Source: a virus. Taken from it: a stretch of 11,164 bases of DNA. The notes below the pieces were generated by a model, which was not told where the DNA came from, ran no database searches, and saw only the letters and a list, made by a program, of their open reading frames with translations. Below are positions 1-11,164 of this stretch, piece after piece (the first letter of the stretch is position 1; the number at the start of each line of letters is the position of its first letter). The stretch lies in the UHGV virus genome UHGV-0778032; one strand, 5' to 3'. The translations under genes were made by a program, and so were the position numbers.

Positions 1-127
1 CTTCTGAGGCATAATCGAAGGTATGGATAATCTCAAAATCACCAGTATCTGCTGGTGCATTCTTCCATCTGGAGAAGCGGGATTTTAATTGCTGGTGTGT
101 GAAGAGTTCAGCATTACGAGTTAAATC
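1..127. repeat. Left copy of perfect 127-bp terminal inverted repeat (reverse complement of 11038..11164)
   Basis: Reverse complement of 1..127 compared block by block with 11038..11164 and found identical; identity breaks at 128 versus 11037. Lies inside codons 26-68 of the outward-reading minus-strand ORF. Confidence 0.95.
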
Positions 128-205
128 TTTCCATGTTCCGTTATTCTCACGGACAAGATGACCTCTATGGCGATAAAACGCATGATAATCAAATGTGCAT
201 AGCAT
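1..205 (-). CDS. Hypothetical protein, 5' portion only (68 codons, continues past left edge)
   Basis: ATG at 205-203 overlaps the TAA stop of the upstream 96-aa ORF (TAATG, translational coupling). Open frame to position 1 (MLCTFDYHAFYRHRGHLVRENNGTWKDLTRNAELFTHQQLKSRFSRWKNAPADTGDFEIIHTFDYASE...). No family recognised. Confidence 0.5.
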   Translation of the reverse strand, partial: MLCTFDYHAFYRHRGHLVRENNGTWKDLTRNAELFTHQQLKSRFSRWKNAPADTGDFEIIHTFDYASE

Positions 206-495
206 TAAACCTCCAATTTATCAGCAAGCTTGCAAACCTTATCGCTCAAGACCTGAATCATTGAGCAGCCTGTACCTTTAGTTTGTGTTCTCAGTTCATC
301 CAATTGCTCTACTGTGATACGGATAGCCTTAGAACCCTCTGCAACGTCCTTGATAGCGTCAAACGGTGTAAGGGCTGTGTGTTCCTTCAGAATCTCACCA
401 ACAAGTGCTGTGTGGCTCATGGCTGGGTATTTGTCTTTGATTGCTGCCAGTCTGGAATATGCCTCTGGCAAAAGGCGCGTAACTGTGTGTCTCAT
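205..495 (-). CDS. Putative small DNA-binding protein with two ribbon-helix-helix-like units (96 aa)
   Basis: ATG at 495-493 with AAGGA 7 nt upstream and a consensus-like promoter. Strand-helix-helix pattern appears twice (TVTRLLPEAYSRLAAI...ALVGEIL and IRITVEQLDELRTQ...MIQVLSDKV). Assignment is by pattern only, not by search. Confidence 0.5.
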   Translation of the reverse strand: MRHTVTRLLPEAYSRLAAIKDKYPAMSHTALVGEILKEHTALTPFDAIKDVAEGSKAIRITVEQLDELRTQTKGTGCSMIQVLSDKVCKLADKLEV

Positions 496-632: not shown

Positions 633-818
633 ATGGGCTTTCTTGAAACAATTGCTGAATCTCACAGATTCGCAAGCTTAGGTTGCTTTGTGTTTCTGGT
701 GCTTCTGGTGTATCAGCTTTTAAAAATGATTATCGCCAAAAGTACACGATTCAATTTCAGCATTAAGCTTTTCAAATATGAAATCACAATTACGATTGAT
801 GATGGTAAAACAAACTAA
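633..818 (+). CDS. Small hydrophobic protein (61 aa), putative membrane peptide
   Basis: ATG at 633 with strong SD AAGGGGAG just upstream and the promoter above. Predicted N-terminal transmembrane stretch (FASLGCFVFLVLLVYQLL) followed by a basic/polar tail. Its stop overlaps the stop of the convergent rep gene. No homology claimed. Confidence 0.45.
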   Translation: MGFLETIAESHRFASLGCFVFLVLLVYQLLKMIIAKSTRFNFSIKLFKYEITITIDDGKTN

Positions 819-1951
819 CGTTTTGTGATGATATTGGTGGCCCTCAGATTACCGGGGTCACCGTCTTTTAATCGTAGCTGGTGGACTGAATCCCAGATAT
901 CAAAATGAAACATCGTAGCAAACTTTAAAGCATCAATTTTTAAACCTGTTACGCCATCATAGAAGAAATAATCCCTCCCTTCCTTCTTTGGTCTAATCCG
1001 GTAAACTTTCCCTTTTCCTTTCTTCGGTTCAGTGTGGGTTTTCTTTCTTGGTGTGAAAGAAAAGTCATCATCGTCACCATCATCAAAGTCATCAAGTTCA
1101 TCAATTCTGTTCTTTAGCTTAGCCTTTCTGAATCTTTCTTTAATTTCTGCTTTACGCTGTTCACGTTTCAATTCCTCTTCAGGGTCTTCTTCATCATCAA
1201 GGTAATCATCGAAGGGGTCCATCTCATCATCAGTGGCGGGGCACTGTGTGTTTTTATGGTCACTATCAACATTCACATCAGAGATTTCTTTGTCTTGTTT
1301 AGAAGTCCTTTTAGAGCTTACTTCAAGGTCATCTAAGTCAGATGTTTTAGAAGCCTCTTTAGTAACTTCACTATCAAGGTCAGATTCATTCACAGAAAGA
1401 AAATCATTTAATTCATCCAAAGAAAGAAAATCATCTTCATTAATGCCATCATTAAGTCCAGTCTCTTTACTCTTATCTATAATATTATTATCTAATGTTT
1501 TATCTAATAACTTATCTAACACGGGTGACATTTTGTCACTACCCCCATGACATTTTGTCACTGGTAGTGGTGTCATTTTGTCACTGGTAGTGGTGTCATT
1601 TTGTCTTACTGATGCTGCAACTTCCTGTGATGTAGGTCTTACAAGTAATTCCGGCTTATCATCCAGTGTGAATACACGATAAGTGCTTTGACGCCCCTGA
1701 TTCTTTTGCACCTGAATTAAACCGTGTTTCTCAAGTGTCTCAATGGCTCTGATTGCTGTTCTCTTTGATACGCCAGCCATATAAGCGAGATGGTCAATAC
1801 TTGGTGAATATGATTTGTATTTCTCTTCATAGAAGTTACAGCTATGAACCATGACCATATAAATTAATCTTGCTGCTGCGTTAATTTCTTCTGAAAGTTG
1901 AGAGATTCGCACATCAAATTTATAAAACTGATTTGGGTTATATTTAGACAT
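815..1951 (-). CDS. Replication initiator protein, phage lambda O-like architecture (378 aa)
   Basis: ATG at 1951-1949 with GAGGT 9 nt upstream. N-terminal ~90 aa has a winged-helix/HTH-like pattern (...SKRTAIRAIETLEKHGLIQV...) resembling the replication protein O N-terminal domain, by eye. The iterons and AT-rich tract lie inside the coding sequence, followed by a highly acidic Asp/Glu-rich region. Confidence 0.6.
   Translation of the reverse strand: MSKYNPNQFYKFDVRISQLSEEINAAARLIYMVMVHSCNFYEEKYKSYSPSIDHLAYMAGVSKRTAIRAIETLEKHGLIQVQKNQGRQSTYRVFTLDDKPELLVRPTSQEVAASVRQNDTTTSDKMTPLPVTKCHGGSDKMSPVLDKLLDKTLDNNIIDKSKETGLNDGINEDDFLSLDELNDFLSVNESDLDSEVTKEASKTSDLDDLEVSSKRTSKQDKEISDVNVDSDHKNTQCPATDDEMDPFDDYLDDEEDPEEELKREQRKAEIKERFRKAKLKNRIDELDDFDDGDDDDFSFTPRKKTHTEPKKGKGKVYRIRPKKEGRDYFFYDGVTGLKIDALKFATMFHFDIWDSVHQLRLKDGDPGNLRATNIITKR
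1440..1520. other. AT-rich tract adjacent to the iterons (candidate DNA unwinding element)
   Basis: Run of A/T-rich sequence (ctataatattattatctaatgttttatctaataacttatc) immediately beside the iteron array, matching iteron-plus-AT-rich origin organisation. Functional role is inferred. Confidence 0.4.
1526..1610. repeat. Four tandem ~23-bp iterons (TGACATTTTGTCACT-like), candidate replication origin repeats
   Basis: Copies start at 1526, 1548, 1571 and 1594 (spacing 22/23/23 bp, about two helical turns). The first two contain the palindrome TGACA-TTT-TGTCA; copies 3 and 4 are preceded by identical GGTAGTGG. They are translated in frame as peptide repeats within rep. Confidence 0.7.
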
Positions 1952-2313: not shown

Positions 2314-2976
2314 TTAGCTCAACCTTTGAGCAATCCTGTATGACGTGCTCAGAGGCATTCTGAGAACATCTGCAATGTACTTAATGGGTTTTCCTTGCCT
2401 GTATAGTTTTATGAAGCCGTCGAGCGTCTCAGGTGGGTAAATGGTGGGTCTTCCTCTTAAGCCTCCTCTGTTAATGATGGTTAACGGTAGCAATGTATCA
2501 GCACAGCAAATCATCTGTGTAATTTCATGCCTGCGTGGTTCTTTTTTAAAAACAACGACTGCACTAGGAAACGGTGAACGAATAGTAAGCCCGTTATGCC
2601 CTGCTGGTGGAAGGTATTTAACTGCACGATGAAGAATACGGATTTCATGGCAAAGCGGGTTTGTGAAGATGTGCTTAAGCCAGTATATGGTTTGGGGTCG
2701 GTACGGTATCAGGAATACCGCTAAATCTGCTTCAGACGCTTTTACGAGGAATGTTTTAGTGTCGCTGTATGGTGGGTTACAGAATACCCGCTCACCATCC
2801 CATGACTGATTGCGAATATCATCGGTGAACCGTGGTAGCAATGCGTCGTGCTTAGTTGCAGCACCATCTAGCGTAAGACCAAATTCACGGTGTAAGTTCT
2901 TAAATAACAAAAATGGAGTTCTCCAGCAATCAGAACCCCCATGATGTTTCCCGATTAAAATATGCTCAATTGACAT
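2314..2976 (-). CDS. Phage-type Dam-family DNA N6-adenine methyltransferase with C-terminal resolvase-like HTH (220 aa)
   Basis: Motifs WRTP, CNPPYS (NPPY catalytic motif of amino-methyltransferases) and FPSAVVVF in the order expected for phage Dam methyltransferases. C-terminal ~50 aa (GRPTIYPPETLDGFIKLYRQGKPIKYIADVLRMPLSTSYRIAQRL) resembles the HTH of small serine recombinases. ATG at 2976-2974; no obvious SD. Confidence 0.7.
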   Translation of the reverse strand: MSIEHILIGKHHGGSDCWRTPFLLFKNLHREFGLTLDGAATKHDALLPRFTDDIRNQSWDGERVFCNPPYSDTKTFLVKASEADLAVFLIPYRPQTIYWLKHIFTNPLCHEIRILHRAVKYLPPAGHNGLTIRSPFPSAVVVFKKEPRRHEITQMICCADTLLPLTIINRGGLRGRPTIYPPETLDGFIKLYRQGKPIKYIADVLRMPLSTSYRIAQRLS

Positions 2977-3223
2977 AAGAAATAAAAATTTTTATTGCAA
3001 TCACTCTTGACAAGGTTTACTCTCTTTTAAGAGATACTTAACAGGTTTTCTAAACGGATATCCTTTCTGGGATATCTATCTTTTATCTTAAAAGTTTTTA
3101 CAGATACTTTAAAGATATCTGTATTAAATCTGTACAGTAACTTTTCAGAGTCTGAAAATTTTTATAAAAAATGACTAGCCCTCTTTGAATCTCATCTTCC
3201 CCGAATCTTCGAAAATATCTGAC

Positions 3224-3259
3224 TAGTTGATTCGGTTAGTTGGGCTTGTACCAACCCCT
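3224..3259. repeat. Composite site: X (3224-3241, TAGTTGATTCGGTTAGTT) overlapping Y (3238-3259, AGTTGGGCTTGTACCAACCCCT) by AGTT
   Basis: X has a perfect 18-bp inverted partner at 3730-3747; Y has a 21/22 inverted partner at 4031-4052. Both found by direct reverse-complement comparison. Confidence 0.85.
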
Positions 3260-3716
3260 AATCTACCTCATGATGTCTGTAGCTGCTAAGTACCCGTCAC
3301 ACCAGCTATGTGACCCCCTTTGCAGAATTTTAAAATATCTATTGACTTTCTTCATAGTATCTGTTAACTCCACCTCAAGAAACCTTCATCACACTTCAAA
3401 GCATCTATCAAGAAGATTTAACCTATCAATAGCTGTAACATTTTATAGCTCTGTGAAGTCCTGCCCAGTTTTCTCTGTAACAGCTACAAACTTCTGTGAC
3501 CTTATATGTCAATGACTTACAAGACATGCTCTCAAGGTGCTGTATAGCCACTTATCTTCAAATACACAAAACCCTTATAAATCAGTACTGATACATATAC
3601 AGTGTGTTTTTAACATAATAGCTGTTTTACGCACTAATCGTGTTCTACATGAAATCTGTATAGATATTAAGGTGTCTGTAAGTGATTTTTTAAGAGGAAC
3701 TACGAAGGAACTATGA

Positions 3717-3747
3717 GGTTGATTCCTAGAACTAACCGAATCAACTA
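3717..3747. repeat. Inverted copy of X (3730-3747) inside a palindromic site GGTTGATTC-N12-GAATCAACT
   Basis: AACTAACCGAATCAACTA is the exact reverse complement of 3224-3241. The flanking sequence makes an imperfect palindrome, with a direct repeat GGAACTA x2 just upstream (3696-3714). Confidence 0.85.
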
Positions 3748-4030
3748 TAACCATCACCTCCTAACTTTCACATAGCTGATTGTTATCTCTTGCAACTGTA
3801 ACGTATGGTGACCAACTGCATGAATAGCGTTATATACTCCTGTATATAGCACTTTTCTAGGAGTCGAGAGAGGGACGACTAACACCCTGCATAGTTCCCT
3901 GAAAAGAGACTTTACAGATTCTTTATATATTTCAATAAGTTAGGATAAAAAGGGGCTATGTCGATACTGCGTAGAATCTGTGTAAAACTGCTTAGATATT
4001 TGAAGAAATACCGTTAAATTGCATAGTCAT

Positions 4031-4052
4031 AGGGGTTGGAACAAGCCCAACT
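4031..4052. repeat. Inverted copy of Y (21/22 identity)
   Basis: AGGGGTTGGAACAAGCCCAACT equals the reverse complement of 3238-3259 with one mismatch; 158 bp upstream of the recombinase start. Confidence 0.85.
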
Positions 4053-4209
4053 ACACCTGTTTATGTCCTGTTATTAACAGGTTTCTTAGAAAACCGAATA
4101 GACTTCATTCAAGGGTCATTGTATTGTAGCTATTCGGCATTGTAGCATTAGCCATAACGTTTATAAGTTCATCTTTAAATGATAATCAATTGCATGGGAG
4201 TTTATCACC

Positions 4210-5730
4210 GTGAGAACCGTAATAACATACTTGAGATTCTCATCAGCCACACAAGGTGCTGAAGGTGCTGATTCAACCAGACGACAAAATGAGCTATTCA
4301 AACAGTGGTTAAGGAAGAATAGCGATGCTCAAGTAGTAGCGTCTTTCAGTGATGAAGGTCTATCCGGTTACAAAGGTAAGCACTTGTCAGGGCAATTTGG
4401 GGATATGCTTTCCCGTATTGAAAGTGGGGAGTTTTCAAAAGGTACAATTCTGTTAGTCGAAGCTATCGACCGTATAGGCCGCCTTGAACATCTTGAAACA
4501 GAAGCCTTGATGAATCGCATTATTGCTCATGGTATCGAGATTCACACTCTACAGGATGGGCTAATCTACACAAGGGATGCTCTATCCGATGATTTAGGAA
4601 TCTCAATCATTCAGCGGGTTAAAAGCTACCTAGCGCATCAGGAGAGTAAGCAGAAGTCTTTCCGTGTTAGCGAGAAGTGGAAACAACGTGCAAAACTTGC
4701 CCTTGCTGGTGAACAGCGTTTAACAAAGATGGTTCCCGGATGGATTGACCCTGAGACTTTTAAACTCAATGAACACGCTGAAACTGTAAGACTGATTTTC
4801 AAGCTGCTGCTAGATGGTGAAAGTCTGCATAACATTGCACGTCACCTACAGGCTAATAACATTAGTTCATTCTCACGACGTAAAGATGCTAACGGGTTTA
4901 GTGTTCATTCTGTGCGCACTATCTTAAGGTCAGAAACAACGATAGGTACACTACCAGCATCACAGCGCAATGACCGCCCCGCTATACCGAACTACTACGA
5001 AGCCGCTATAGATGTATCAACGTTCAATAAAGCTCAAGAGATTCTTGGTAAGAACCGTATAGGCCGTACACCTGCAAGTGATAATCCATTAACGATTAAC
5101 ATCTTCAAAGGTCTGTTTAGGTGTCAGTGCGGGGCTAGTGTTCACCCTACAGGGACTAAGAATAAGTATCAGGGCGTTTATCGGTGCAATAACCATCTTG
5201 ATGGTCGCTGTGATGTTCCTCCGTTGAAGCGTAAACCGTTTGATAAGTGGATGATTGATAATTTTCTGGGGATGATTGACGTGGGGAATGATGGAGAAGC
5301 AGAGGGGAAGATTTCATCTCTACAGCATGAGGTTGAAATTGTCACAACCAGAATCAAGAAAGCTACCGCCCTACTTCTTGAGATGGATGATATTGATGAA
5401 CTAAAAATTCAGCTTAAGGAACTGAACCAGAAGCGCACAGAACTACAGACCACGATTGATAACATGAGGCGTAAGGCTTCACTCACTGATAAGGAACTAC
5501 CCCAGCTTAAAGATATTGACCTGACAACTAAAGCGGGTCGTGTCGAGTGTCAATTAATTTTGTCCAAACATCTAAAAGGGCTTACATTGGGTAAGGGTTC
5601 AGTAACTATAACGCTACAGAACGACACTGAAATCACCATACCTACAAACCCGTTACCGCTAAATGATGGGTCACCAATCTTTGAAATTGCTGATAAAGAG
5701 CTACTGGATATTGACGCTTATCAACTGTAA
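4210..5730 (+). CDS. Large serine recombinase (506 aa)
   Basis: N-terminal YLRFSSATQ fits the catalytic-serine motif of the resolvase/invertase catalytic domain. Followed by a long recombinase-type middle region, a Cys-rich zinc-ribbon-like segment (CQCG...YRCNNHLDGRC) and a C-terminal coiled-coil-like region. GTG start at 4210 with GGGAG 9 nt upstream. Confidence 0.8.
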   Translation: MRTVITYLRFSSATQGAEGADSTRRQNELFKQWLRKNSDAQVVASFSDEGLSGYKGKHLSGQFGDMLSRIESGEFSKGTILLVEAIDRIGRLEHLETEALMNRIIAHGIEIHTLQDGLIYTRDALSDDLGISIIQRVKSYLAHQESKQKSFRVSEKWKQRAKLALAGEQRLTKMVPGWIDPETFKLNEHAETVRLIFKLLLDGESLHNIARHLQANNISSFSRRKDANGFSVHSVRTILRSETTIGTLPASQRNDRPAIPNYYEAAIDVSTFNKAQEILGKNRIGRTPASDNPLTINIFKGLFRCQCGASVHPTGTKNKYQGVYRCNNHLDGRCDVPPLKRKPFDKWMIDNFLGMIDVGNDGEAEGKISSLQHEVEIVTTRIKKATALLLEMDDIDELKIQLKELNQKRTELQTTIDNMRRKASLTDKELPQLKDIDLTTKAGRVECQLILSKHLKGLTLGKGSVTITLQNDTEITIPTNPLPLNDGSPIFEIADKELLDIDAYQL

Positions 5731-5735
5731 TTTTC

Positions 5736-5757
5736 AGGGGCTATGAAGCCCCTTTTT
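5736..5757 (+). terminator. Rho-independent terminator after the recombinase gene
   Basis: AGGGGCT-ATGA-AGCCCCT hairpin (7-bp stem, 4-nt loop) followed by TTTT, starting 6 nt after the TAA stop at 5728-5730. Confidence 0.6.
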
Positions 5758-5762
5758 ATGTC

Positions 5763-6554
5763 TCAATAAGTGCCCTTCTTATTCGGATTCACAGAGTACT
5801 TTCGTAAAGCATTACCCGACTTAAGCACTTTTGAAGCCTGCTCATTAGCTGAGGCTGTGAAGGTGCTCTCACCATTTTTAACGCTAACGCTCTTAGAGCA
5901 CGTTACACGGGCTTTTAATGCTTCATCTGATAACTCACTTGCCGAATAGCTAAAAAGCTCTTTACAGGTCAGCATAGGGCTTCCAAGACTCGTTGTAGTG
6001 TTGCCAGTGTTCTTTTTACTGGTAGCACCACCGTCATTCGTGGTAGAAGTCCTTCCGGTCGCAGCCGAGATATCAGTCTGACCCACAATAGCTTTAAAGT
6101 TAATTTCCTGAAAAGTTAATTGGATTCTAAGACCATTGGCAATACCAACATCTTTAGAGGCTTTAAAGTTTGTAATAATTGAGTCGTCAATCTTAATACC
6201 ATCTTTACAGACAACTGAGATAATTTGCTTCTGGTCACGCCAGTTTTCAAGAGTGTCTATGAAGTTTTCCACCAGCTTATTATCTCTTGAGATGAGGATA
6301 CTACCGGATTCACCAACCACAACCACACCACTGATTGAAATAGTTCTGGGTGAACGCATTACATTATCTGTTACAGCCTGCCCTGATTGCATATTTTGAG
6401 TGGTCACCATCATAGGGCTGTCAAATTCCATGTTCTCAGTTGCTGATAGTGACAAGAAATTATCTGGTTGGCCTTGTAGATGGAAGTAAACACCATCTTT
6501 GCCAGTGTAACGAAGCTGATTAGTGTAAATCATTAAATTATCCTTTGATTTCAA
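5763..6554 (-). CDS. Hypothetical protein downstream of the tape-measure gene (possible tail structural protein)
   Basis: The ORF-track start at 6554 is TTG. The in-frame ATG at 6533-6531 has AAAGGA 7 nt upstream and is the more plausible start (256 aa). Contains a Thr/Gly/Asn-rich linker. The structural role is guessed from position only. Confidence 0.55.
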
Positions 6555-6609
6555 AGGCTTAGTGTATTTTAATCATTTTTAACCAAGCTTTTGATATTTA
6601 AGTGTTTTA

Positions 6610-6682
6610 TCTGTTAAGCGTGAGCTACGTGAAAAATAATTTTTGGTGGGTATATCTGTTCAGGAGATTTCACGTAGCACAC
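6610..6682 (-). repeat. Copy A of conserved 73-bp dyad element (GCTACGTGAAA ... TTTCACGTAGC arms)
   Basis: 71/73 identical to 8845-8917 in the same orientation. Lies 14 nt after the tape-measure stop and about 75 nt upstream of the next gene start. Confidence 0.9.
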
Positions 6683-6696
6683 GGATATATAAGAAA

Positions 6697-8829
6697 TCAT
6701 TCTTCCTCTGGATAGCTTGAACTTAAGAGCATATCCTGCGTGAACTGGTCATTAGCCGATTGATTGAAAGTAAAGAAAGCTGGTTCATCCGGTCTAACAG
6801 TTGCTTCACCAGTGATATTAACTGATAAAGGCTTCTTAGTTTCTGCTGTTAAAGCGTCTACCTTGCGTGATAGTTCACTAATAGTCATTGCAAGTTGAGC
6901 ATTGCTATTAACCATGTCACCTGTGATAGCTGGTGGAGTTGATTGTGTGTTATTAACAAGGTTACTCATTGGCTCTTGGAAGTTAGCAATTTTATTAGCC
7001 GCACCATTAAACCAGTCAGCGATAGAACTACCAATCTTAGCCCATCCATCATTAATTTGATTTGGCTTAGATGAATCGCCTTTGTATTCAGGGTTGAAGT
7101 TTGTCTCTGTGCCAATACCTGATTGGTGTAAGTTCGGATTCTTAGCCGCTTCAGGGTTTAAATTATCAAGAGCAAAGTTCACCAACTCAGCATAAAGAAC
7201 AACTCTACCAACTTTATTTAGCGCACCACCTGAAGAACCAGCCTTGCCAGCTTTAGCTTTATTAACAGCATCACCGAATGAAGTAACAGCATTTGCAAGG
7301 TTTAACAAGCCTCCAGCTACATTTGCAGCCTTTTGAGCAGTAACAGCTACGGCAAGCATCTTCAAACCATCAATTAACCCATCAGATAAACCATCAACAA
7401 TTTTTTTCTGAGTGTCATTTAGTGAACGGTAAGCTAATGTCACCTCATCGAAGAATGCTCTTACCCTGTAGCTGATATCAGTCAATGAATCGACACCATG
7501 TGACATAGAAGTCATGAGACTACCAAGAGATTCACCAAGACTTTTACCACTTCCACCAAGAGCGTTTAAAAGCGTTGTTAAGCTTCTTGTAAAATCTTGC
7601 AGACCATCTTCAGAACCTCTGAAGATACTATCAAGCGTGGTATTCCAAGAGTTTTTCAGGTTCCCTAGTTGTGCCTGTGTACTTTCTGAAATAGCTTTCC
7701 AGCCACCTTTAGCGGTGATTTGTTTATTCAGTTCCTGAGTGACCTTCTGAAGAGTATCGGCAGATTTTAAAGCCCCCTTCTTCATGGCATCAAATAGCTC
7801 TTGTTCATTCCTTCCGGTTGCTTTAGCGAATACCTGAACCATACCAGGAACAGCTTCAGCTAATTGCCCCTTAAGCTCTTCAGCCATAACCTGACCCTTA
7901 CCAGCCATCTGTGATAATGCTGTCAGTGCTCGCTTAATCTCTTCTTCACTTCTCCCCATCAGACGAGCATAGCCAATCATATTTTTAAAAAGTTCTTCAG
8001 AACCTTGAATACCCATAGACTCTTTAGCTGAAGCACCAAAACCAGCAAACTGTGATTGCAGTTCAGCGATATCTAAACCCGTTGTTTGAGCTAATGACTT
8101 TGTGAACTCTTTTACCTGACCTGCATCTTTATCAAATACGAAATCAATTGAACGCTCAGCACTTGCACGCTGTAAACCAATTTCCATAATCTTCTGATAA
8201 CTGGCTAATACAGCCTGCATTGAGATAAATGCACCTGCTGTTTTAACTGCTGCTGAAGACAGGTTATCAAGACTATTAGCTGTTCTGTCACCATTAATGC
8301 TGGTGGATGTATGACCTCTGGCTTTAGCAATTGCTTCTCTGACTGAAGCGTTTAACTGAGCTAACTTCTCATTGAATTTTGAAGAATCCATTGACCCGGC
8401 TTTAGCAGATAGCCCGTAAAACTGAGATTTGATGTATTTCTGCAAAATAGGGTCAAAGCCTTTTAGCTTAGACATATTAGCTGAATAAGCTGCTGTGATT
8501 GCTCTGTTGCCGCTAATTCGTGGCTGTCTCGGTTGTTTTGGAGGATTAACAGCATCGTTAACCTGACTTGTGAAACGGAAAACTTTTGTGTTTCTTGCTC
8601 TAGCTTCCAGACGGTCAAAGGTCTTATTAATTTTTCCTTCCATTGACTTCAAAGAACTTGTCAGATTGCTATCAAGTTGCCTTGTATTAATCTTGAAACC
8701 TTTGTTAAGGTTCTTTTCAATTCTTTGTGCTGACTGCAAAGCTGCCTTTTCAACTCTTTGCAAGCCCTTAATAACGTTTTCATTGAAGCCTAGCTCAACG
8801 ATAAAACTATCAACTTTAAATTGTGCCAT
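6697..8829 (-). CDS. Phage tail tape-measure-domain protein (710 aa)
   Basis: Long Ala/Gln/Leu/Ser-rich helical protein. The segment ...GRSEEEIKRALTALSQMAGKGQVMAEELKGQLAEAVPGMVQVFAKATGRNEQELFDAMKKGALKSADTL... matches my memory of the conserved tape-measure domain. ATG at 8829-8827 with GAGGTGA 9 nt upstream. Confidence 0.7.
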   Translation of the reverse strand: MAQFKVDSFIVELGFNENVIKGLQRVEKAALQSAQRIEKNLNKGFKINTRQLDSNLTSSLKSMEGKINKTFDRLEARARNTKVFRFTSQVNDAVNPPKQPRQPRISGNRAITAAYSANMSKLKGFDPILQKYIKSQFYGLSAKAGSMDSSKFNEKLAQLNASVREAIAKARGHTSTSINGDRTANSLDNLSSAAVKTAGAFISMQAVLASYQKIMEIGLQRASAERSIDFVFDKDAGQVKEFTKSLAQTTGLDIAELQSQFAGFGASAKESMGIQGSEELFKNMIGYARLMGRSEEEIKRALTALSQMAGKGQVMAEELKGQLAEAVPGMVQVFAKATGRNEQELFDAMKKGALKSADTLQKVTQELNKQITAKGGWKAISESTQAQLGNLKNSWNTTLDSIFRGSEDGLQDFTRSLTTLLNALGGSGKSLGESLGSLMTSMSHGVDSLTDISYRVRAFFDEVTLAYRSLNDTQKKIVDGLSDGLIDGLKMLAVAVTAQKAANVAGGLLNLANAVTSFGDAVNKAKAGKAGSSGGALNKVGRVVLYAELVNFALDNLNPEAAKNPNLHQSGIGTETNFNPEYKGDSSKPNQINDGWAKIGSSIADWFNGAANKIANFQEPMSNLVNNTQSTPPAITGDMVNSNAQLAMTISELSRKVDALTAETKKPLSVNITGEATVRPDEPAFFTFNQSANDQFTQDMLLSSSYPEEE

Positions 8830-8844
8830 TGTTCATATTTCACC

Positions 8845-8917
8845 TCTGTTAAGCGTGAGCTACGTAAAAAATAATTTTTGGTGGGTATATCTGTTCAGAA
8901 GATTTCACGTAGCACAC
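8845..8917 (-). repeat. Copy B of conserved 73-bp dyad element, immediately upstream of the tape-measure gene
   Basis: 71/73 identical to 6610-6682. Its gene-proximal end runs directly into the SD of the tape-measure gene. Confidence 0.9.
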
Positions 8918-8927
8918 ATACAAAAAA

Positions 8928-8964
8928 GGGAGAAACTACCGAATAATATCGATAATCTCTCCCC
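8928..8964 (-). terminator. Candidate terminator (minus strand) between the 71-aa gene and copy B
   Basis: GGGAGA (8928-8933) pairs with TCTCCC (8958-8963) and is followed on the minus strand by TTTTTTG. The loop is long (24 nt), so this is weak. Confidence 0.3.
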
Positions 8965-9012
8965 GTGTTATAGATTCGATAGAACCTATCTCATACACCC
9001 AACCAATCTTTT

Positions 9013-9228
9013 TTAATGCCTGACAAGATAATGTAGTTCCGTTTCACCTATAATTTGAGCATCGGAAGGGATACGGTCGATACACCACTTTGGAATCTTG
9101 CGTGTTTTTGGTTTGCGTGAGGTGATAATTTGATGTTTGGTTTTAATTCTTAAGGCTGGCTTAGTTTGTAACTTTAAGTTTTCACAAACAGACTTAATAG
9201 TTTCATAGCGTTCTGTTAAATCAATCAT
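9013..9228 (-). CDS. Hypothetical small basic protein (71 aa)
   Basis: ATG at 9228-9226 with GAGGTGA 4 nt upstream; Lys/Arg-rich middle; 22-nt gap from the upstream 234-aa gene suggests an operon. No family recognised. Confidence 0.5.
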   Translation of the reverse strand: MIDLTERYETIKSVCENLKLQTKPALRIKTKHQIITSRKPKTRKIPKWCIDRIPSDAQIIGETELHYLVRH

Positions 9229-9250
9229 TCATCACCTCACATATGCATAA

Positions 9251-9955
9251 TTAAACAGCCTTGCTAAATTCTCGTGGAACACTCAGAAAATCATTGAAGC
9301 TGATAATCTGTGCCAACTCTTGACGGTACTCCTTAGCCAGCGCTTGATGGTCACTAATCAGCTTAGCCAGTCTTGATTTCAGCAAATTAATCTCATTTTC
9401 TCTTGCTTTCATCAGTTTCTCTTTGGCAATTTCTTCAAGCTCAGCTTGTGATTTATCAGCAACAATTAGAGACAGTCGATGTGGTGCTCTGACAGCTCTT
9501 TCTGTACGAACAACTCTTTGACCTTCTGGTAAATCTGCAATCACTTTACCAATCTCTACAGGGTCATACCCCCAACCATCACGGTCTAGTCGAGAGAAAT
9601 AAGCATAAGAATTGGTTTGAAGCTCCATCAAAATAGCCATTTCGTCGATTTCGTCTTCAAGCTTGGACTGAATTTTCTCGTAAACACTTCTCATTGCTTC
9701 TTGAGAGTCTCGAAGGTCTTTGAAATATTTGCGTTGCAGCTTCAGTTTCAAATCAAGCTCACATTCCTCATTCATCGAAAAATCAATTTCAACTCTTGGA
9801 ATCTCGATTGGTTCTGGTGGAATATATGGACCTTTATTTACTTCGTGCGATTCCCGCCAAGCTCTATCAAAAGATTCACGCAAAGTTAATTCGTGAATAT
9901 CAAGTGCACTTGGTCTGTTCTCAACAATCATTTCGTGTTCATTACGAATGGACAT
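9251..9955 (-). CDS. Hypothetical protein (234 aa), charged and predicted helical
   Basis: ATG at 9955-9953 with AGAGGA 8 nt upstream. Long uninterrupted frame, Glu/Lys/Arg-rich with coiled-coil-like C-terminus. No family recognised. Confidence 0.6.
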   Translation of the reverse strand: MSIRNEHEMIVENRPSALDIHELTLRESFDRAWRESHEVNKGPYIPPEPIEIPRVEIDFSMNEECELDLKLKLQRKYFKDLRDSQEAMRSVYEKIQSKLEDEIDEMAILMELQTNSYAYFSRLDRDGWGYDPVEIGKVIADLPEGQRVVRTERAVRAPHRLSLIVADKSQAELEEIAKEKLMKARENEINLLKSRLAKLISDHQALAKEYRQELAQIISFNDFLSVPREFSKAV

Positions 9956-10093: not shown

Positions 10094-10117
10094 GATTCGG
10101 ATATTCTAGGAATCATC
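10094..10117. repeat. Diverged inverted copy of the 3717-3747 site (GATTCGG-N4-TCTAGGAATCA)
   Basis: Shares GATTCGG plus an exact 11-mer TTCTAGGAATC (10104-10114) with the reverse complement of 3721-3747. Sits in the long intergenic region upstream of the 234-aa gene. Confidence 0.5.
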
Positions 10118-10214
10118 CTCATCTGTGAAGGGCTTTGAAGGTTTGCTTTAACGTTAACGAAGTTTCAGGAAAAACTTTCTTTAAAAGCTCTGTTTAAAAA
10201 CTCTTAAAGAAAAC

Positions 10215-10235
10215 GCCCTAATCATGAGTTAGGGC
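10215..10235 (-). terminator. Candidate rho-independent terminator (minus strand)
   Basis: GCCCTAA-TCATGAG-TTAGGGC hairpin followed on the minus strand by GTTTTCTTT. Located about 300 nt downstream of the 143-aa ORF stop. Confidence 0.4.
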
Positions 10236-10539
10236 AAAGCTGTAAGGGTTCAATAATGAATGATTAAGCACTTTTTGAGATGACCTCTCAGACTAAACTG
10301 AAAGGCCATGACGAAAAGCATTGCACCTTTCCAATCAGAATATAGTTATCATCGATGTAGAGACGATTAATATTTTAATTCAAGGAGAATTGCTCTCCCT
10401 ATATATACAATTATGTCATGCTCAAGGTTATTTGTCAACAGCTTTTTAACAGATTGGTAACATCAATTCTTATTTACTGTGTTACCCATCCAGCAACCAA
10501 CAAATAACCCTAAAGCCGTCCAGAGAATAACGAGCGTCA

Positions 10540-10971
10540 TTACATAACCTCGCTGTAAGGGTTTAATTCCTGTTGAAAGGTCAGGAATACATTCAACTTC
10601 AATAGTTGCTCTGGGCTTAAATCAAGTCGATTGCACTCTTCAATGATAAAGCGCTTACTGTATGGGTCTGTTACTTCCAACTTGTGAACATAGTCACCAA
10701 GTTTAATTTCGTTGATGGTGCGTTTGTCGATATAACTTGAAGCTTCAAAGCAATGCAGGAAACAGATATTAAAGCCCGACCTGTTCAGGTCAATCAACCA
10801 ATTCATAGTTTCTTGGTCAACCATAATTTGCATTGGGTAATTGTTCATTTTTAGATTTCCCATAAAACACATCTCAGACCTCTTAAAATAGCCATTCTGA
10901 GGCCAGTAACCATGCGGGTTACAGAGGGAGTTGCACTGGCTGGTAAGGTAATTTATCAAATTAAGGTGCAA
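10540..10971 (-). CDS. Hypothetical protein (ORF-track 143 aa; likely 110 aa from internal ATG)
   Basis: The ORF-track start at 10971 is TTG with no SD. The in-frame ATG at 10872-10870 has AAGAGG 6 nt upstream and is the more plausible start. No family recognised. Confidence 0.5.
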   Translation of the reverse strand: MHLNLINYLTSQCNSLCNPHGYWPQNGYFKRSEMCFMGNLKMNNYPMQIMVDQETMNWLIDLNRSGFNICFLHCFEASSYIDKRTINEIKLGDYVHKLEVTDPYSKRFIIEECNRLDLSPEQLLKLNVFLTFQQELNPYSEVM

Positions 10972-10983
10972 CTCTGCCTGTAA

Positions 10984-11164
10984 AGTGCATTCTACCGTTA
11001 CTTAGATGGTTATTTTGAATTGTCTTTATTAATCAATGATTTAACTCGTAATGCTGAACTCTTCACACACCAGCAATTAAAATCCCGCTTCTCCAGATGG
11101 AAGAATGCACCAGCAGATACTGGTGATTTTGAGATTATCCATACCTTCGATTATGCCTCAGAAG
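10984..11164 (+). pseudogene. Start-less, promoter-less inverted partial copy of the left-edge gene
   Basis: Open + frame from the TAA at 10981-10983 to the window end. The last 42 codons are identical to codons 26-68 of the left-edge gene, but the 18 codons upstream differ and hold no ATG/GTG or SD. May be silent, or expressed only after rearrangement. Confidence 0.4.
11038..11164. repeat. Right copy of perfect 127-bp terminal inverted repeat (reverse complement of 1..127)
   Basis: Same comparison as the left copy; in frame within an open + strand frame that runs off the right edge. Confidence 0.95.

What the first reader, a model, noticed from the sequence alone, without database searches (positions are those of the whole stretch)
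5763..9955. Tape-measure-domain gene with none of the usual morphogenesis neighbours
A 710-aa tape-measure-like protein is present, but the window has no recognisable terminase, portal, capsid, major tail protein or G/GT frameshift chaperone pair. The upstream genes (234 aa, then 71 aa) do not fit the chaperone pattern, and the tape-measure gene appears separately transcribed (terminator-like hairpin plus 73-bp element upstream). Together with the rep/ori, methyltransferase and recombinase this suggests a satellite-like or degraded/mosaic element, or a non-canonical use of a tape-measure-domain protein.
Basis: partly seen in the sequence, partly recalled or inferred. Interest (0 to 1): 0.45.

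Follow-up and report, generated by a model that had tools for sequence, protein, structure and literature searches.

The report
E. coli satellite stealing Felix-O1 tails
The lone tape-measure gene sits on a small (~11.2 kb) integrating, self-replicating E. coli element that carries only two tail parts and a genome-end signal copied from virulent Felix-O1-like phages, so it is most likely an undescribed phage satellite, which matters because these phages are common phage-therapy candidates.

Summary
A 710-aa tape measure protein (TMP) gene lies at 6697-8829(-), preceded by a strong terminator and a repeated element. There is no terminase, portal, capsid, tube, sheath or chaperone gene. One correction: the 256/263-aa downstream gene is the TMP's normal neighbour in Felixounavirus, the tube initiator (PDB 9ndy_A, E=1e-110).

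The window is the excised circular form (attP at 4094-4137) of an ~11.2-kb island with a large serine integrase, an iteron-bearing Rep and a Dam-like methylase. It inserts precisely at the tonB start codon. Relatives with the same gene order sit at wrbA and yecE, and in Citrobacter and E. albertii. The TMP-initiator cassette occurs in 499 of 5426 complete E. coli genomes.

Both tail genes are under purifying selection (dN/dS 0.06-0.27). The island TMP is only ~30% identical to the phage TMP, but keeps its N-terminus, a central block and the hub-docking C-terminus. A noncoding block conserved in all eight island variants compared aligns across the inner boundary of a Felixounavirus 581-bp terminal repeat.

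Best reading: a satellite of virulent Felix-O1-like phages that builds chimeric tails, as shown in 2026 for Vibrio cholerae PLEs. I found no published description. All functional steps are inferred.

The parts
1..204 (-). 5' part (codons 1-68) of a 141-aa gene with a C-terminal HTH-like stretch; the gene is cut by the window ends
   Evidence: The full ORF is seen in L006 1598-2023. blastn of window against L006 shows the gene spans the window junction. No family hit.
205..495 (-). 96-aa island-specific protein of unknown function
   Evidence: ORF; no Pfam, PHROG, NCBIfam or PADLOC hit; conserved in related islands.
815..1951 (-). Replication initiator (378 aa, N-terminal winged HTH, acidic repeat-rich centre)
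   Evidence: PF13730 HTH_36 at 2e-6; PHROG replication-initiation/O-like/DnaD-like families at 1e-10 to 1e-5.
1524..1593 (.). Iterons (GGTGACATTTTGTCACT x3, spaced 22-23 nt) inside the rep gene; candidate origin of replication
   Evidence: the repeat finder families D4/D7. The ori assignment is inferred by analogy with lambda O/ori.
2314..2976 (-). Dam-type N6-adenine DNA methyltransferase with a C-terminal HTH
   Evidence: PF05869 at 4e-14, phrog_111 at 1e-27, PADLOC orphan MTase at 9e-14.
3037..3094 (.). Noncoding block 86% identical to the Felixounavirus divergent-promoter intergenic region; includes an exact 25-nt match, GGATATCTATCTTTTATCTTAAAAG
   Evidence: blastn against VpaE1 23361-23416, alignment A2, unique in the phage genome. 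Shigella Sf13-like phages match the same stretch.
3120..3340 (.). Noncoding block homologous to both sides of the inner boundary of the Felixounavirus 581-bp direct terminal repeat (the boundary maps to about window 3288/3289); candidate packaging signal
   Evidence: 253 Ounavirinae records match. Phage I14.1 has an exact 581-bp terminal repeat and the island block spans its end. The sub-block 3120-3226 is conserved in all island variants compared.
4094..4137 (.). attP: imperfect inverted arms CCGAATAG / CTATTCGG around the core TCAAGGGTCATTG (4109-4121)
   Evidence: Window 4090-4140 equals the left half of attR joined to the right half of attL of the integrated copy in strain MIN10. The reconstructed attB is intact in 5194 of 5426 genomes.
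4210..5730 (+). Large serine recombinase (integrase), 506 aa
   Evidence: PF00239 + PF07508 + PF13408; phrog_95 integrase at 4e-78.
5736..5753 (.). Terminator-like hairpin between the convergent int and tube-initiator genes
   Evidence: scan_promoters_terminators.
5763..6533 (-). Tube initiator (Dit-like baseplate protein), 256 aa from the ATG that aligns with the phage start; a TTG at 6554 would give 263 aa
   Evidence: PF21821 at 4e-19, phrog_3721 at 5e-125, PDB 9ndy_A 'Tube initiator protein (gp018)' at 1e-110, 67.5% identity to VpaE1_066, ~82% nt identity to 134 phage records. dN/dS 0.06-0.14.
6610..6693 (-). Copy 1 of the repeated element (half-sites CTACGTGA ... TYACGTAG in an invariant 73-nt frame, ending GCTTAACAG) upstream of the tube-initiator gene
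   Evidence: the repeat finder D1/I18. RNA fold z=-5.5. Detected before the tube-initiator gene in 7 of 8 island variants by the half-site pattern, with a blastn remnant in the eighth, L014. Absent from the phage genome.
6697..8829 (-). Tape measure protein, 710 aa
   Evidence: PF20155, TIGR02675, phrog_4036, PDB 9ndy_F. About 31% identity to phage TMP overall, but N-terminal ~50 aa 60-72%, a central block 48-74% and the last ~11 aa 72% (LLSSSYPEEE identical). dN/dS 0.13-0.27.
8845..8928 (-). Copy 2 of the repeated element, upstream of the TMP gene
   Evidence: present before the TMP gene in 4 of 8 variants.
8927..8964 (-). Intrinsic terminator (16-pair stem plus T-run) ending the upstream 234/71-aa transcription unit
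   Evidence: RNA fold -24.4 kcal/mol, z=-5.5; conserved in other variants.
9013..9228 (-). 71-aa basic island-specific protein of unknown function
   Evidence: 89 clusters, all from Escherichia, Shigella or Citrobacter, all annotated 'hypothetical'. AF2 model pLDDT 75 with no fold match. Not similar to the phage chaperone.
9251..9955 (-). 234-aa helical island-specific protein of unknown function; marker of the island family
   Evidence: Only 12 representatives among 1.84 billion proteins. AF2 model all-helical, pLDDT 56. No tail-chaperone similarity.
10540..10872 (-). ~107-110-aa island-specific protein (the ORF extends to a TTG at 10971, giving 143 aa)
   Evidence: conserved in related islands; no family hit.
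11035..11164 (.). Inverted duplicate of window 1-130: a contig-end artefact, not part of the element. About 185 nt of the circle are missing here.
   Evidence: the repeat finder I1, 99% complementary; comparison with L006.

Best explanation
The window is the excised, circular form of an ~11.2-kb integrative, self-replicating island. The island is a satellite of virulent Felix-O1-like myoviruses (Felixounavirus/Ounavirinae). It has a large serine integrase and attP for integration, here into the tonB start-codon region. It has a Rep protein with iterons inside its own gene for replication, and a Dam-like methylase.

It encodes no capsid, terminase, tube, sheath or fibres. It carries only its own versions of the two proteins that nucleate tail-tube growth on the baseplate hub: the tape measure protein (TMP) and the tube initiator.

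Proposed mechanism (inferred):
1. On infection by a Felixounavirus the island excises and replicates.
2. Its TMP and tube initiator are expressed from their own regulated units. Each gene follows a terminator and/or a conserved 73-nt element.
3. Both proteins dock onto helper baseplate hubs through the conserved TMP C-terminus (LLSSSYPEEE), the TMP N-terminus, and the tube-like domain of the initiator.
4. The resulting chimeric tails are helper-built but carry satellite TMP and initiator. They should be one to two tube discs shorter than helper tails (island TMPs are 688-724 aa against 742 aa).
5. The island DNA is packaged by the helper terminase, which recognises the island's copy of the helper's terminal-repeat boundary.

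The same substitution probably interferes with helper tail assembly or sidesteps tail-targeting interference. This parallels what was shown experimentally for Vibrio cholerae PLE and phage ICP1.

Shown here: homology, anatomy, att sites, circular form, family conservation and purifying selection. Inferred: induction by the phage, incorporation into tails, packaging and any interference.
For: (1) A discrete mobile element. Window 4090-4140 is an attP-type junction relative to attL/attR of the tonB-yciI copy. The reconstructed attB is intact in 5194 of 5426 E. coli genomes. An independent assembly contig, L006, has overlapping ends consistent with an ~11.2-kb circle.

(2) Replication and integration modules are present.

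(3) The only phage-homologous coding genes, in the window and in seven other variants, are the TMP and the tube initiator. Both match Felixounavirus. Their identity is anchored by the Bas63 baseplate structure 9ndy and its paper, PMC12609058.

(4) The conservation pattern fits docking onto helper parts. The TMP termini and one central block are conserved while the rest is 10-30% identical. The tube-like domain of the initiator is 67-90% identical. In Bas63, the C-terminal 25 residues of the TMP contact the hub and puncture apparatus.

(5) The genes are functional, not decaying. dN/dS is 0.13-0.27 for the TMP and 0.06-0.14 for the initiator, and the ORFs are intact in all 8 variants.

(6) It is a family. 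The cassette is in 499 of 5426 genomes, always chromosomal, with up to 5 places per genome. The same gene order is found at tonB, wrbA and yecE, in Citrobacter and in E. albertii.

(7) Mimicry of helper cis-elements. The island block 3120-3340 aligns across the inner boundary of the exact 581-bp terminal repeat of phage I14.1, whose paper reports PhageTerm-supported terminal repeats (PMC11737134). Part of the block is conserved in all island variants compared. The same 31-nt indel is polymorphic in both phages and islands. Further helper intergenic copies sit at 3037-3094 and, in another variant, at phage 59.3 kb.

(8) Experimental precedent. PLE satellites of the virulent myophage ICP1 encode their own TMP, chaperone and hub protein and build chimeric tails about 10 nm shorter than the helper's (PMC12987554).
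Against: No experiment links the island to any phage. Induction, packaging and transfer are all inferred.

No small terminase, capsid-size redirector or recombination directionality factor could be identified. Five island proteins have no detectable homologues of known function.

No tail assembly chaperone was found, unlike in PLE.

The attP junction was absent from IMG/VR, and the IMG/VR contigs carrying the island are long provirus-like regions rather than virome circles. There is therefore no evidence of encapsidated island DNA.

The circular contig could also arise from a tandem duplication.

The terminal-repeat boundary rests on one phage record. Other records begin at differing positions within the same noncoding region.

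The marker proteins were not found in Salmonella, the classical Felix O1 host.
Confidence: 0.62

Rival explanations
1. Defence-only island. The island TMP and tube initiator act as dominant-negative decoys. They keep the docking termini, occupy helper baseplate hubs or chaperones, and yield defective or tailless phage. This protects the population, but the island itself is not packaged.
For: Docking regions are conserved while the TMP core diverges fast: island types are only 42-50% identical to each other, consistent with an arms race. Tail-assembly interference is an established defence strategy (Tai, PMC11364771; Rta, PMC12987554). No packaging or capsid gene was recognised, and no virome evidence was found.
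Against: The element has its own Rep, iterons, integrase and a circular form, which a static defence locus does not need. TMP length is kept within 2.5-7% of the helper's in all variants, as expected for a working ruler. A conserved copy of the helper terminal-repeat boundary is hard to explain without packaging. In PLE, interference and piracy coexist, so this reading is partly compatible with the main explanation rather than exclusive of it.
Confidence: 0.2
2. Integrative plasmid-like element or cryptic prophage fragment that picked up a TMP-initiator cassette by chance recombination with a Felix-O1-like phage. The tail genes would have no current function related to phage exploitation.
For: The element replicates and integrates on its own. 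Regions are mosaic between variants. IS elements and cargo genes sit between int and the cassette in some copies.
Against: The cassette is present in every variant examined, at three or more att sites and in three genera, always in the same position. It is under purifying selection and has dedicated regulatory elements. There are no pseudogenised head or tail remnants. PLSDB has no match.
Confidence: 0.06
3. The TMP and initiator are expressed in uninfected cells and block incoming Felixounavirus genome delivery. This would be superinfection exclusion by competing for the envelope partners of the ejected phage TMP.
For: Phage TMPs take part in genome injection through inner-membrane and periplasmic partners (HK97 work cited in PMC11364771). 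The island inserts at tonB and replaces its promoter, which hints at an envelope link.
Against: The tube initiator has no known role outside the baseplate. The TMP carries no signal peptide or family hit suggesting export. The terminator plus element upstream suggests tight, conditional expression. None of this explains the terminal-repeat mimic.
Confidence: 0.05

Closest known systems
[quoted passage not shown]
   Same: A small chromosomal island with a large serine recombinase and its own replication initiator with iterons. The (putative) helper is a strictly virulent myovirus. The island encodes its own TMP, far diverged from the helper's (~30% here, 20% in PLE), plus a better-conserved baseplate-proximal protein (initiator 64-77% here, BhuB 41% in PLE). 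The satellite TMP is shorter than the helper's. Most other genes are orphans.
   Different: Different host (Escherichia/Citrobacter) and helper lineage (Ounavirinae). The second tail protein is the tube initiator, not the hub protein BhuB. No tail assembly chaperone is detectable. No Rta, TcaP or other PLE protein homology was tested or found. The island is ~11 kb rather than ~18 kb. It integrates into tonB, wrbA or yecE rather than Vibrio cholerae repeats. It carries copies of helper noncoding cis-elements, including the terminal-repeat boundary. None of its biology has been shown experimentally.
Felixounavirus tail module: Bas63 gp17 TMP and gp18 tube initiator (PDB 9ndy; PMC12609058)
   Same: Same two proteins in the same order (TMP then initiator). 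The initiator is ~70-80% identical over its tube-like domain. The TMP termini and the TMP_3 domain are conserved.
   Different: In the phage the two genes overlap and lie within a full tail/baseplate operon, preceded by a PF21822 chaperone pair. In the island they stand alone, separated by a 163-nt spacer that holds a regulatory element, and are preceded by unrelated orphan genes. The TMP core is 10-30% identical and 18-54 aa shorter.
P4-like satellites, PICIs and capsid-forming PICIs of Enterobacteria (SatelliteFinder families, PMC10085698)
   Same: Size (~11 kb, like P4). Integrated, with their own replication functions. They depend on helper structural genes. cos-type satellites carry a copy of the helper packaging site.
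   Different: No tyrosine integrase, AlpA, primase-replicase, Sid/Psu/Delta, small terminase or capsid genes. The likely helper is a virulent phage, not a temperate one. The island carries tail genes.
EPIPs of Mycolicibacterium (bioRxiv 2025, PMC12822802)
   Same: Satellites with a serine integrase that encode a TMP; altered tail length is reported.
   Different: EPIPs also encode a small terminase, capsid, scaffold and head-tail connectors. They induce a prophage helper with a siphovirus-type tail, and the host phylum is unrelated.

Membership tests
Tape measure protein (PF20155 TMP_3 / Felixounavirus gp17) | Match to the TMP_3 / tape_meas_nterm domain above the curated cut-off | tested here: met
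   PF20155 71 bits (cut-off 41); TIGR02675 46.6 bits (cut-off 21.35); PDB 9ndy_F at 9e-69.
Tape measure protein (PF20155 TMP_3 / Felixounavirus gp17) | Hub/puncture-apparatus-docking C-terminus, and length comparable to the helper's | tested here: met
   The last 10 aa, LLSSSYPEEE, are identical to VpaE1/Bas63. Length is 710 aa against 742 aa; the island range is 688-724 aa.
Tube initiator (Bas63 gp18, PF21821 Dit_like) | Full-length homology to a structurally defined tube initiator | tested here: met
   9ndy_A at E=1e-110 over residues 5-256; PF21821 69 bits (cut-off 24.2).
PLE-type satellite (chimeric-tail satellites of virulent myophages) | Large serine recombinase integrase and precise att sites | tested here: met
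   PF00239 + PF07508 + PF13408. attP, attL, attR and an empty attB were all identified.
PLE-type satellite (chimeric-tail satellites of virulent myophages) | Own replication initiator and iteron origin | tested here: met
   Rep-like wHTH protein with three 17-nt iterons inside its gene. Origin activity was not tested.
PLE-type satellite (chimeric-tail satellites of virulent myophages) | Satellite-encoded TMP plus a baseplate-proximal protein homologous to, but diverged from, those of a virulent myophage | tested here: met
   TMP ~31% and initiator ~71% identical to Felixounavirus VpaE1. These are the only phage-like coding genes.
PLE-type satellite (chimeric-tail satellites of virulent myophages) | Satellite-encoded tail assembly chaperone | tested here: not met
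   PF21822 hits phage VpaE1_063 (1.7e-19) but no island protein. hhalign probability is <1% for the 71-aa and 234-aa families.
PLE-type satellite (chimeric-tail satellites of virulent myophages) | Sequence homology to PLE proteins (RepA, TcaP, NixI, Rta and others) | not tested
Homologues of the 71-aa and 234-aa proteins are confined to Escherichia, Shigella and Citrobacter, so family membership is unlikely. The resemblance is functional.
PLE-type satellite (chimeric-tail satellites of virulent myophages) | Helper-triggered excision, replication, packaging and transduction; satellite TMP present in virions | not testable with these tools
   Requires infection experiments. The only indirect support is the circular form in one assembly and the mimic of the helper terminal-repeat boundary.
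P4-like / PICI / cf-PICI satellites | Tyrosine integrase, AlpA, primase-replicase; Sid/Psu/Delta (P4); small terminase or capsid genes (PICI, cf-PICI) | tested here: not met
   No such Pfam, PHROG or NCBIfam hits in any of the 10 ORFs; the integrase is a serine recombinase.
Cryptic / degraded prophage | Decaying gene content: pseudogenes, relaxed selection, variable remnants of head/tail modules, no precise mobile unit | tested here: not met
   dN/dS 0.06-0.27. ORFs are intact in 8 of 8 variants. Gene order is conserved. No other phage-homologous coding sequence is present. Insertion is precise and a circular form exists.
Known anti-phage defence systems (PADLOC-DB) | Match to any defence-system protein model | tested here: not met
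   Only an orphan methyltransferase model matches the Dam-like gene; nothing matches the other ORFs or the cargo genes of related islands.

The most novel reading that the evidence does not exclude
E. coli and its relatives carry a widespread satellite family (the cassette is in ~9% of complete E. coli genomes) that I could not find described. It would parasitise strictly virulent Felix-O1-like phages in two ways: by replacing the tape measure and tube initiator in helper tails, and by carrying a mimic of the helper's terminal-repeat boundary for packaging. That would extend PLE-type 'chimeric tail' piracy from Vibrio cholerae to the main model bacterium and to a phage genus widely used in therapy and biocontrol.
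Probability: 0.55. Interest if true: 0.8.

Novelty: new variant of a known kind. Interest (0 to 1): 0.72.

Why it matters
Satellites of virulent phages are known in detail only from Vibrio cholerae PLE and ICP1. Chimeric tail assembly was first shown there in 2026. An analogous but unrelated family in E. coli would show that tail-nucleation piracy is a general strategy. It would also offer a tractable model, since E. coli K-12 genetics, the BASEL phage Bas63 and its solved baseplate structure are all available.

There are practical consequences too. Felixounavirus phages are common therapy and biocontrol candidates, and about one in ten E. coli genomes carries such an island. The islands could lower phage yield, spread by transduction in treated populations, or explain strain-specific failures of these phages.

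The island's compact TMP-initiator pair, with conserved docking ends and a free-evolving core, is also a natural experiment on how tape measures are selected and loaded onto baseplates.

Tried and rejected
- **Prophage tail region with missing flanks:** rejected. The window is the whole element, and integrated copies are flanked by housekeeping genes.
- **Plasmid:** no PLSDB match.
- **G/GT chaperone pair or frameshift at the 234/71/TMP junctions:** no usable slippery heptamer. The 71-aa frame is closed just upstream. No similarity to the phage chaperones.
- **Structure-based annotation:** the 234-aa model was too poor to search (pLDDT 56). The 71-aa model (pLDDT 75) had no Foldseek match at E<=0.001 in PDB or BFVD.
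- **Remote homology for the 234-aa protein:** a profile search of 1.84 billion representatives gave only 12 hits, all the same small family.
- **Rfam:** nothing above gathering scores.
- **The 73/84-nt element as a copy of a phage sequence:** no match in the VpaE1 genome.
- **The 73/84-nt element as a covarying RNA:** the arms are conserved without compensatory changes.
- **attP junction in IMG/VR:** none found. IMG/VR hits are provirus-like regions.
- **~11-kb Shigella sonnei contigs as episomes:** they are chromosomal fragments.
- **Terminal repeat in phage BPS15Q2:** the record ends do not repeat. The repeat was found instead in phage I14.1.
- **Host-matched tail genes:** the Citrobacter island's tube initiator is about equally similar to Escherichia, Salmonella and Citrobacter ounaviruses, so there is no clear host-specific match.
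- **Literature:** six full-text searches found no description of an E. coli or Felixounavirus satellite.

Full report
**1. What is in the window**

The window has ten substantial ORFs:

| Coordinates | Product |
|---|---|
| 1-204(-) | 5' part of a 141-aa HTH gene cut by the window ends |
| 205-495(-) | 96-aa orphan |
| 815-1951(-) | 378-aa replication initiator (winged HTH), with three 17-nt iterons inside its own gene at 1524-1593 |
| 2314-2976(-) | Dam-type methyltransferase with a C-terminal HTH |
| 2977-4209 | 1.2-kb noncoding stretch |
| 4210-5730(+) | 506-aa large serine recombinase |
| 5763-6533/6554(-) | 256/263-aa Dit-like protein |
| 6697-8829(-) | 710-aa tape measure protein (TMP) |
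| 9013-9228(-) | 71-aa orphan |
| 9251-9955(-) | 234-aa orphan |
| 10540-10872/10971(-) | ~107-aa orphan |

Family assignments come from Pfam, PHROGs, NCBIfam and PADLOC. No ORF matches a terminase, portal, capsid, tube, sheath, fibre or tail-chaperone family.

The last 130 bases of the window are an inverted copy of the first 130 (I1). Comparison with an independent assembly contig carrying the identical TMP shows this is a contig-end artefact. That contig is NCBI GCA_001292545.1, CYGL01000620.1, 12,790 bp (locus L006). About 185 nt of the real sequence are missing, and the real molecule closes into a circle of roughly 11.2 kb.

**2. The observation**

- The TMP is real: PF20155 71 bits, and PDB 9ndy_F 'Tape measure protein gp017' at 9e-69.
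- A 16-pair intrinsic terminator at 8964-8927(-) (z=-5.5) ends the upstream unit.
- An 84-nt element, whose 73-nt core is 97% identical between copies, lies between the terminator and the TMP start. It is repeated between the TMP stop and the next gene.
- The 234-aa and 71-aa genes are not a G/GT chaperone pair. They have no chaperone family hits. The phage's own chaperone VpaE1_063 hits PF21822 at 1.7e-19, but no island protein does. hhalign probabilities are below 1%. No slippery heptamer sits where it could fuse frames.

One point is wrong. The downstream 256/263-aa gene is a standard tail gene and the TMP's canonical neighbour. It is the tube initiator, matching 9ndy_A 'Tube initiator protein (gp018)' at E=1e-110 and phrog_3721 at 5e-125.

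**3. Where the tail genes come from**

megablast of the whole window against 50,697 phage records hits only the tube-initiator gene. It matches 134 Ounavirinae genomes (Felix-O1-like virulent myoviruses) at ~80-83% nucleotide identity.

In phage VpaE1 the TMP (742 aa) is immediately followed, with overlapping stop and start, by the 266-aa homologue. I assembled the full VpaE1 genome and searched it with every island ORF and with the island in six frames.
- Only the TMP and the initiator have phage counterparts. The same holds for seven other island variants.
- The initiator is 67.5% identical over its full length, and about 80% over the first 194 residues.
- The TMP is only ~31% identical overall. 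Its first ~50 residues are 60-72% identical, one central block in the TMP_3 domain is 48-74% identical, and the last ten residues (LLSSSYPEEE) are identical.

The Bas63 cryo-EM paper identifies gp17 as the TMP and gp18 as the tube initiator. It describes gp18 as a tube-like fold with a ~100-aa C-terminal extension running through the baseplate. It also shows that the C-terminal 25 residues of the TMP contact the hub and the puncture apparatus (PMC12609058). The island proteins therefore keep the parts that dock onto helper components and diverge elsewhere.

**4. The element is a discrete, mobile island, and the window is its excised form**

The window matches 565 of 5426 complete E. coli genomes, always on chromosomes. 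In strain MIN10 the island lies between tonB and yciI, in the order int, initiator, TMP, 71 aa, 234 aa, small ORFs, rep, dam. This is circularly permuted relative to the window.
- The left junction (attL) overlaps the tonB start codon, with core TCAAGGGTCATTG.
- The right junction (attR) repeats that core.
- Window 4090-4140 equals the left half of attR joined to the right half of attL. This is an attP, with inverted arms CCGAATAG/CTATTCGG as expected for a serine integrase.
- An attB rebuilt from the two chromosomal flanks is found intact at 100% identity in 5194 of 5426 genomes. The insertion is therefore precise.

**5. It is a family with a conserved core**

The TMP-initiator cassette alone matches 499 of 5426 genomes, with up to five places per genome. 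Islands with the same gene order occur at several sites and in several taxa:
- wrbA;
- yecE (DUF72), including in Shigella sonnei;
- Citrobacter freundii;
- Escherichia albertii.

The shared order is int, occasional cargo or IS, initiator, TMP, ~71 aa, an optional 93-102 aa gene, ~234 aa, ~107 aa, small ORFs, and a replication module that varies.

The 234-aa and 71-aa proteins are confined to this family. The 234-aa profile finds only 12 representatives among 1.84 billion proteins. The 71-aa search returns 89 clusters, and every one that carries an organism name is from Escherichia, Shigella or Citrobacter.

Island TMPs fall into at least three types that are only 42-50% identical to each other and ~30% identical to the phage. 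All are intact, and all are 688-724 aa long. The initiators are 58-97% identical to each other and 64-77% identical to the phage. Nei-Gojobori dN/dS between close pairs is 0.13-0.27 for the TMP and 0.06-0.14 for the initiator. These are working genes, not remnants.

**6. Helper cis-elements in the island's noncoding DNA**

The 1.2-kb noncoding region shares two stretches with Ounavirinae genomes, and 253 phage records match it.

The first stretch is window 3037-3094. It is 86% identical to the divergent-promoter intergenic region between VpaE1_043 and VpaE1_044, and includes an exact 25-mer.

The second stretch is window ~3120-3340. It matches a 1.75-kb noncoding region of the phage (VpaE1 13.5-15.3 kb).
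- Phage vB_EcoM_I14.1 comes from a paper that reports PhageTerm-supported direct terminal repeats (PMC11737134). Its record carries an exact 581-bp repeat at both ends.
- The island block aligns across the inner end of that repeat. CTTTGCAGAATTTTAAAATATC lies 26-50 nt inside the repeat. AAAAATATCTG and TTCAGA..AAAATTTTTATAAAA lie ~35 nt and ~65-105 nt outside it. The boundary maps to about window 3288/3289.
- The outer part of the block (3120-3226) is conserved in every island variant examined, even where neighbouring sequence is not.
- A 31-nt insertion/deletion at the same position is polymorphic in both phages and islands. This suggests continuing exchange between them.
- The heptamer CTTAACA is concentrated in the phage terminal region: 16 of its 49 copies lie within 1.2 kb. 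CTTAACAG occurs three times in the window (0.4 expected), including at the 3' end of both 73-nt elements.
- Another island variant, PK8241, lacks Rep378. It carries GGT-rich iteron-like repeats homologous to a different phage intergenic region.

I read the terminal-repeat boundary copy as a candidate packaging signal, and the other copies as regulatory or replication mimicry. None of this has been tested.

**7. The repeated element**

Across eight variants the element precedes the initiator gene in all eight. The half-site pattern finds it in seven, and the eighth (L014) has a blastn-detectable copy with a diverged left arm. It precedes the TMP gene in four of eight.

The half-sites CTACGTGA and TYACGTAG sit in an invariant 73-nt frame. 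The spacer between them varies, and the arms change without compensation. This looks more like a pair of protein-binding sites, or a short conserved hairpin, than a covarying RNA. The element has no counterpart in the phage genome. Its role, whether conditional promoter, operator or antiterminator, is unknown.

**8. How it most likely works**

The closest worked-out system is the PLE satellites of Vibrio cholerae. In 2026 PLEs were shown to encode their own TMP, tail chaperone and hub protein BhuB, at 20%, 20% and 41% identity to helper ICP1. They build chimeric tails about 10 nm shorter that exclude the helper's TMP. In PLE11 this allows a small protein, Rta, to block the helper's TMP (PMC12987554).

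The element here has the same logic:
- a virulent myophage as the putative helper;
- a large serine integrase;
- its own Rep with iterons;
- a far-diverged but docking-competent TMP;
- a better-conserved baseplate-proximal partner.

I therefore propose that it is a satellite of Felixounavirus phages, and that it replaces the TMP and the tube initiator during tail nucleation.

The model makes a quantitative prediction. Bas63 has 26 tube discs with a rise of 38.1 Å for a 742-aa TMP. Island TMPs of 688-724 aa would then give tails about one to two discs (~2-7 nm) shorter.

It differs from PLE in several ways. The second protein is the tube initiator rather than the hub protein. No chaperone is present, so the helper's chaperone would be used, which fits the conserved N-terminal and central TMP blocks. 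The orphan genes are unrelated as far as could be tested. The island also carries helper cis-elements.

**9. Rivals**

- **Defence-only decoy:** this is the main alternative and is partly compatible with the satellite model. It does not explain Rep, the integrase, the circular form or the terminal-repeat mimic.
- **Chance acquisition or remnant:** contradicted by family-wide conservation and purifying selection.
- **Superinfection exclusion by the TMP:** does not explain the tube initiator or the cis-elements.

**10. Limits**

- Nothing functional has been shown.
- No packaging, capsid-remodelling or excision-directionality gene was identified.
- The circular form rests on the window and one other assembly, and could reflect a tandem copy.
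- The terminal-repeat boundary rests on one phage record.
- No encapsidated island DNA was found in IMG/VR.
- The literature check covered only the held library. Six searches found no description. The EPIP preprint states that TMPs are otherwise unreported in satellites apart from PLE11 (PMC12822802).

**11. Verdict**

It is neither an odd TMP nor a decayed prophage. It is a compact, widespread, apparently undescribed E. coli island family whose anatomy points to PLE-like piracy of Felix-O1-type tails. I rate it a new variant of a known kind, with interest 0.72.

Noticed in passing
window 1-130 and 11035-11164: The two window ends are 99% reverse-complementary copies of each other. Comparison with contig L006 shows this is a contig-end artefact. 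About 185 nt of the circle are missing, and a 141-aa HTH gene is split across the ends.
   Followed up: yes
window 4109-4209; L002 7950-8110: Integration occurs at the tonB start codon. The native tonB upstream region (from my own recollection it holds the Fur-regulated tonB promoter; not checked here) ends up ~12 kb away at attR, and the ~90 bp of island sequence next to int now lies upstream of tonB. TonB expression, and with it sensitivity to TonB-dependent phages and colicins, may be altered in carriers. About 230 of 5426 genomes have this site occupied.
   Followed up: partly
window 3224-3275, 3713-3747, 10104-10122, and 3237-3260 / 4030-4053: A ~35-nt motif also found next to the phage terminal repeat (TAGTTGATTCGGT(T)AG..CTACCTCAT) occurs as inverted copies 490 nt apart, with a partial third copy in the other noncoding region. 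A separate 24-nt inverted repeat pair brackets 770 nt. The MIN10 island lacks these. This could be an invertible segment, a mini-insertion or a set of protein-binding sites.
   Followed up: partly
window 10214-10438 (- strand): The best sigma-70-like promoter in the window (TTGACA-17-CATAAT with an upstream TG, 10438-10410) is followed ~175 nt later by a terminator-like hairpin (10236-10214), in a region with no ORF. This is a candidate small RNA upstream of the 234-aa/71-aa unit. The stretch 10113-10522 is ~90% identical to the wrbA-site islands, although the flanking genes are only ~70% identical.
   Followed up: partly
L009 17913-18001 (E. coli PK8241 island at wrbA): This variant lacks the 378-aa Rep. 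It carries GGT-rich iteron-like repeats homologous to the phage VpaE1 intergenic region 59285-59373, possibly a copy of a helper replication or regulatory site.
   Followed up: partly
L002 19127-19792; L019 9201-9842; L022 4677-5504; L008 6921-9715; L009 8120-9981: Variable cargo sits at two hotspots: next to attR, and between int and the tube-initiator gene. It includes orphan proteins of 213-275 aa, IS21 and IS3 elements, and a sigma-factor fragment. None matches Pfam or PADLOC models. These may be accessory or defence genes, as in other satellites.
   Followed up: partly
window 8829-8850 (- strand): The Shine-Dalgarno-like GAGGTG upstream of the TMP is followed first by an out-of-frame ATG that opens a 6-codon mini-ORF (ATGAACAATGGCACAATTTAA) overlapping the TMP start. 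Related islands also have an ATGA just before the TMP start. This may be a relic or a functional analogue of the translational coupling seen in the phage, where the chaperone stop overlaps the TMP start.
   Followed up: no
PP892526.1 (L033/L034): Phage vB_EcoM_I14.1 is filed in its GenBank taxonomy line as Tequintavirus (Demerecviridae). Its sequence is ~87-91% identical to Felixounavirus VpaE1 across the regions compared, so the taxonomy line appears to be wrong.
   Followed up: partly
L024 328-720: One island variant encodes a 130-aa protein with 36% identity over 63 aa to phage VpaE1_085. This is a third phage-related coding gene, seen only in this variant.
   Followed up: no
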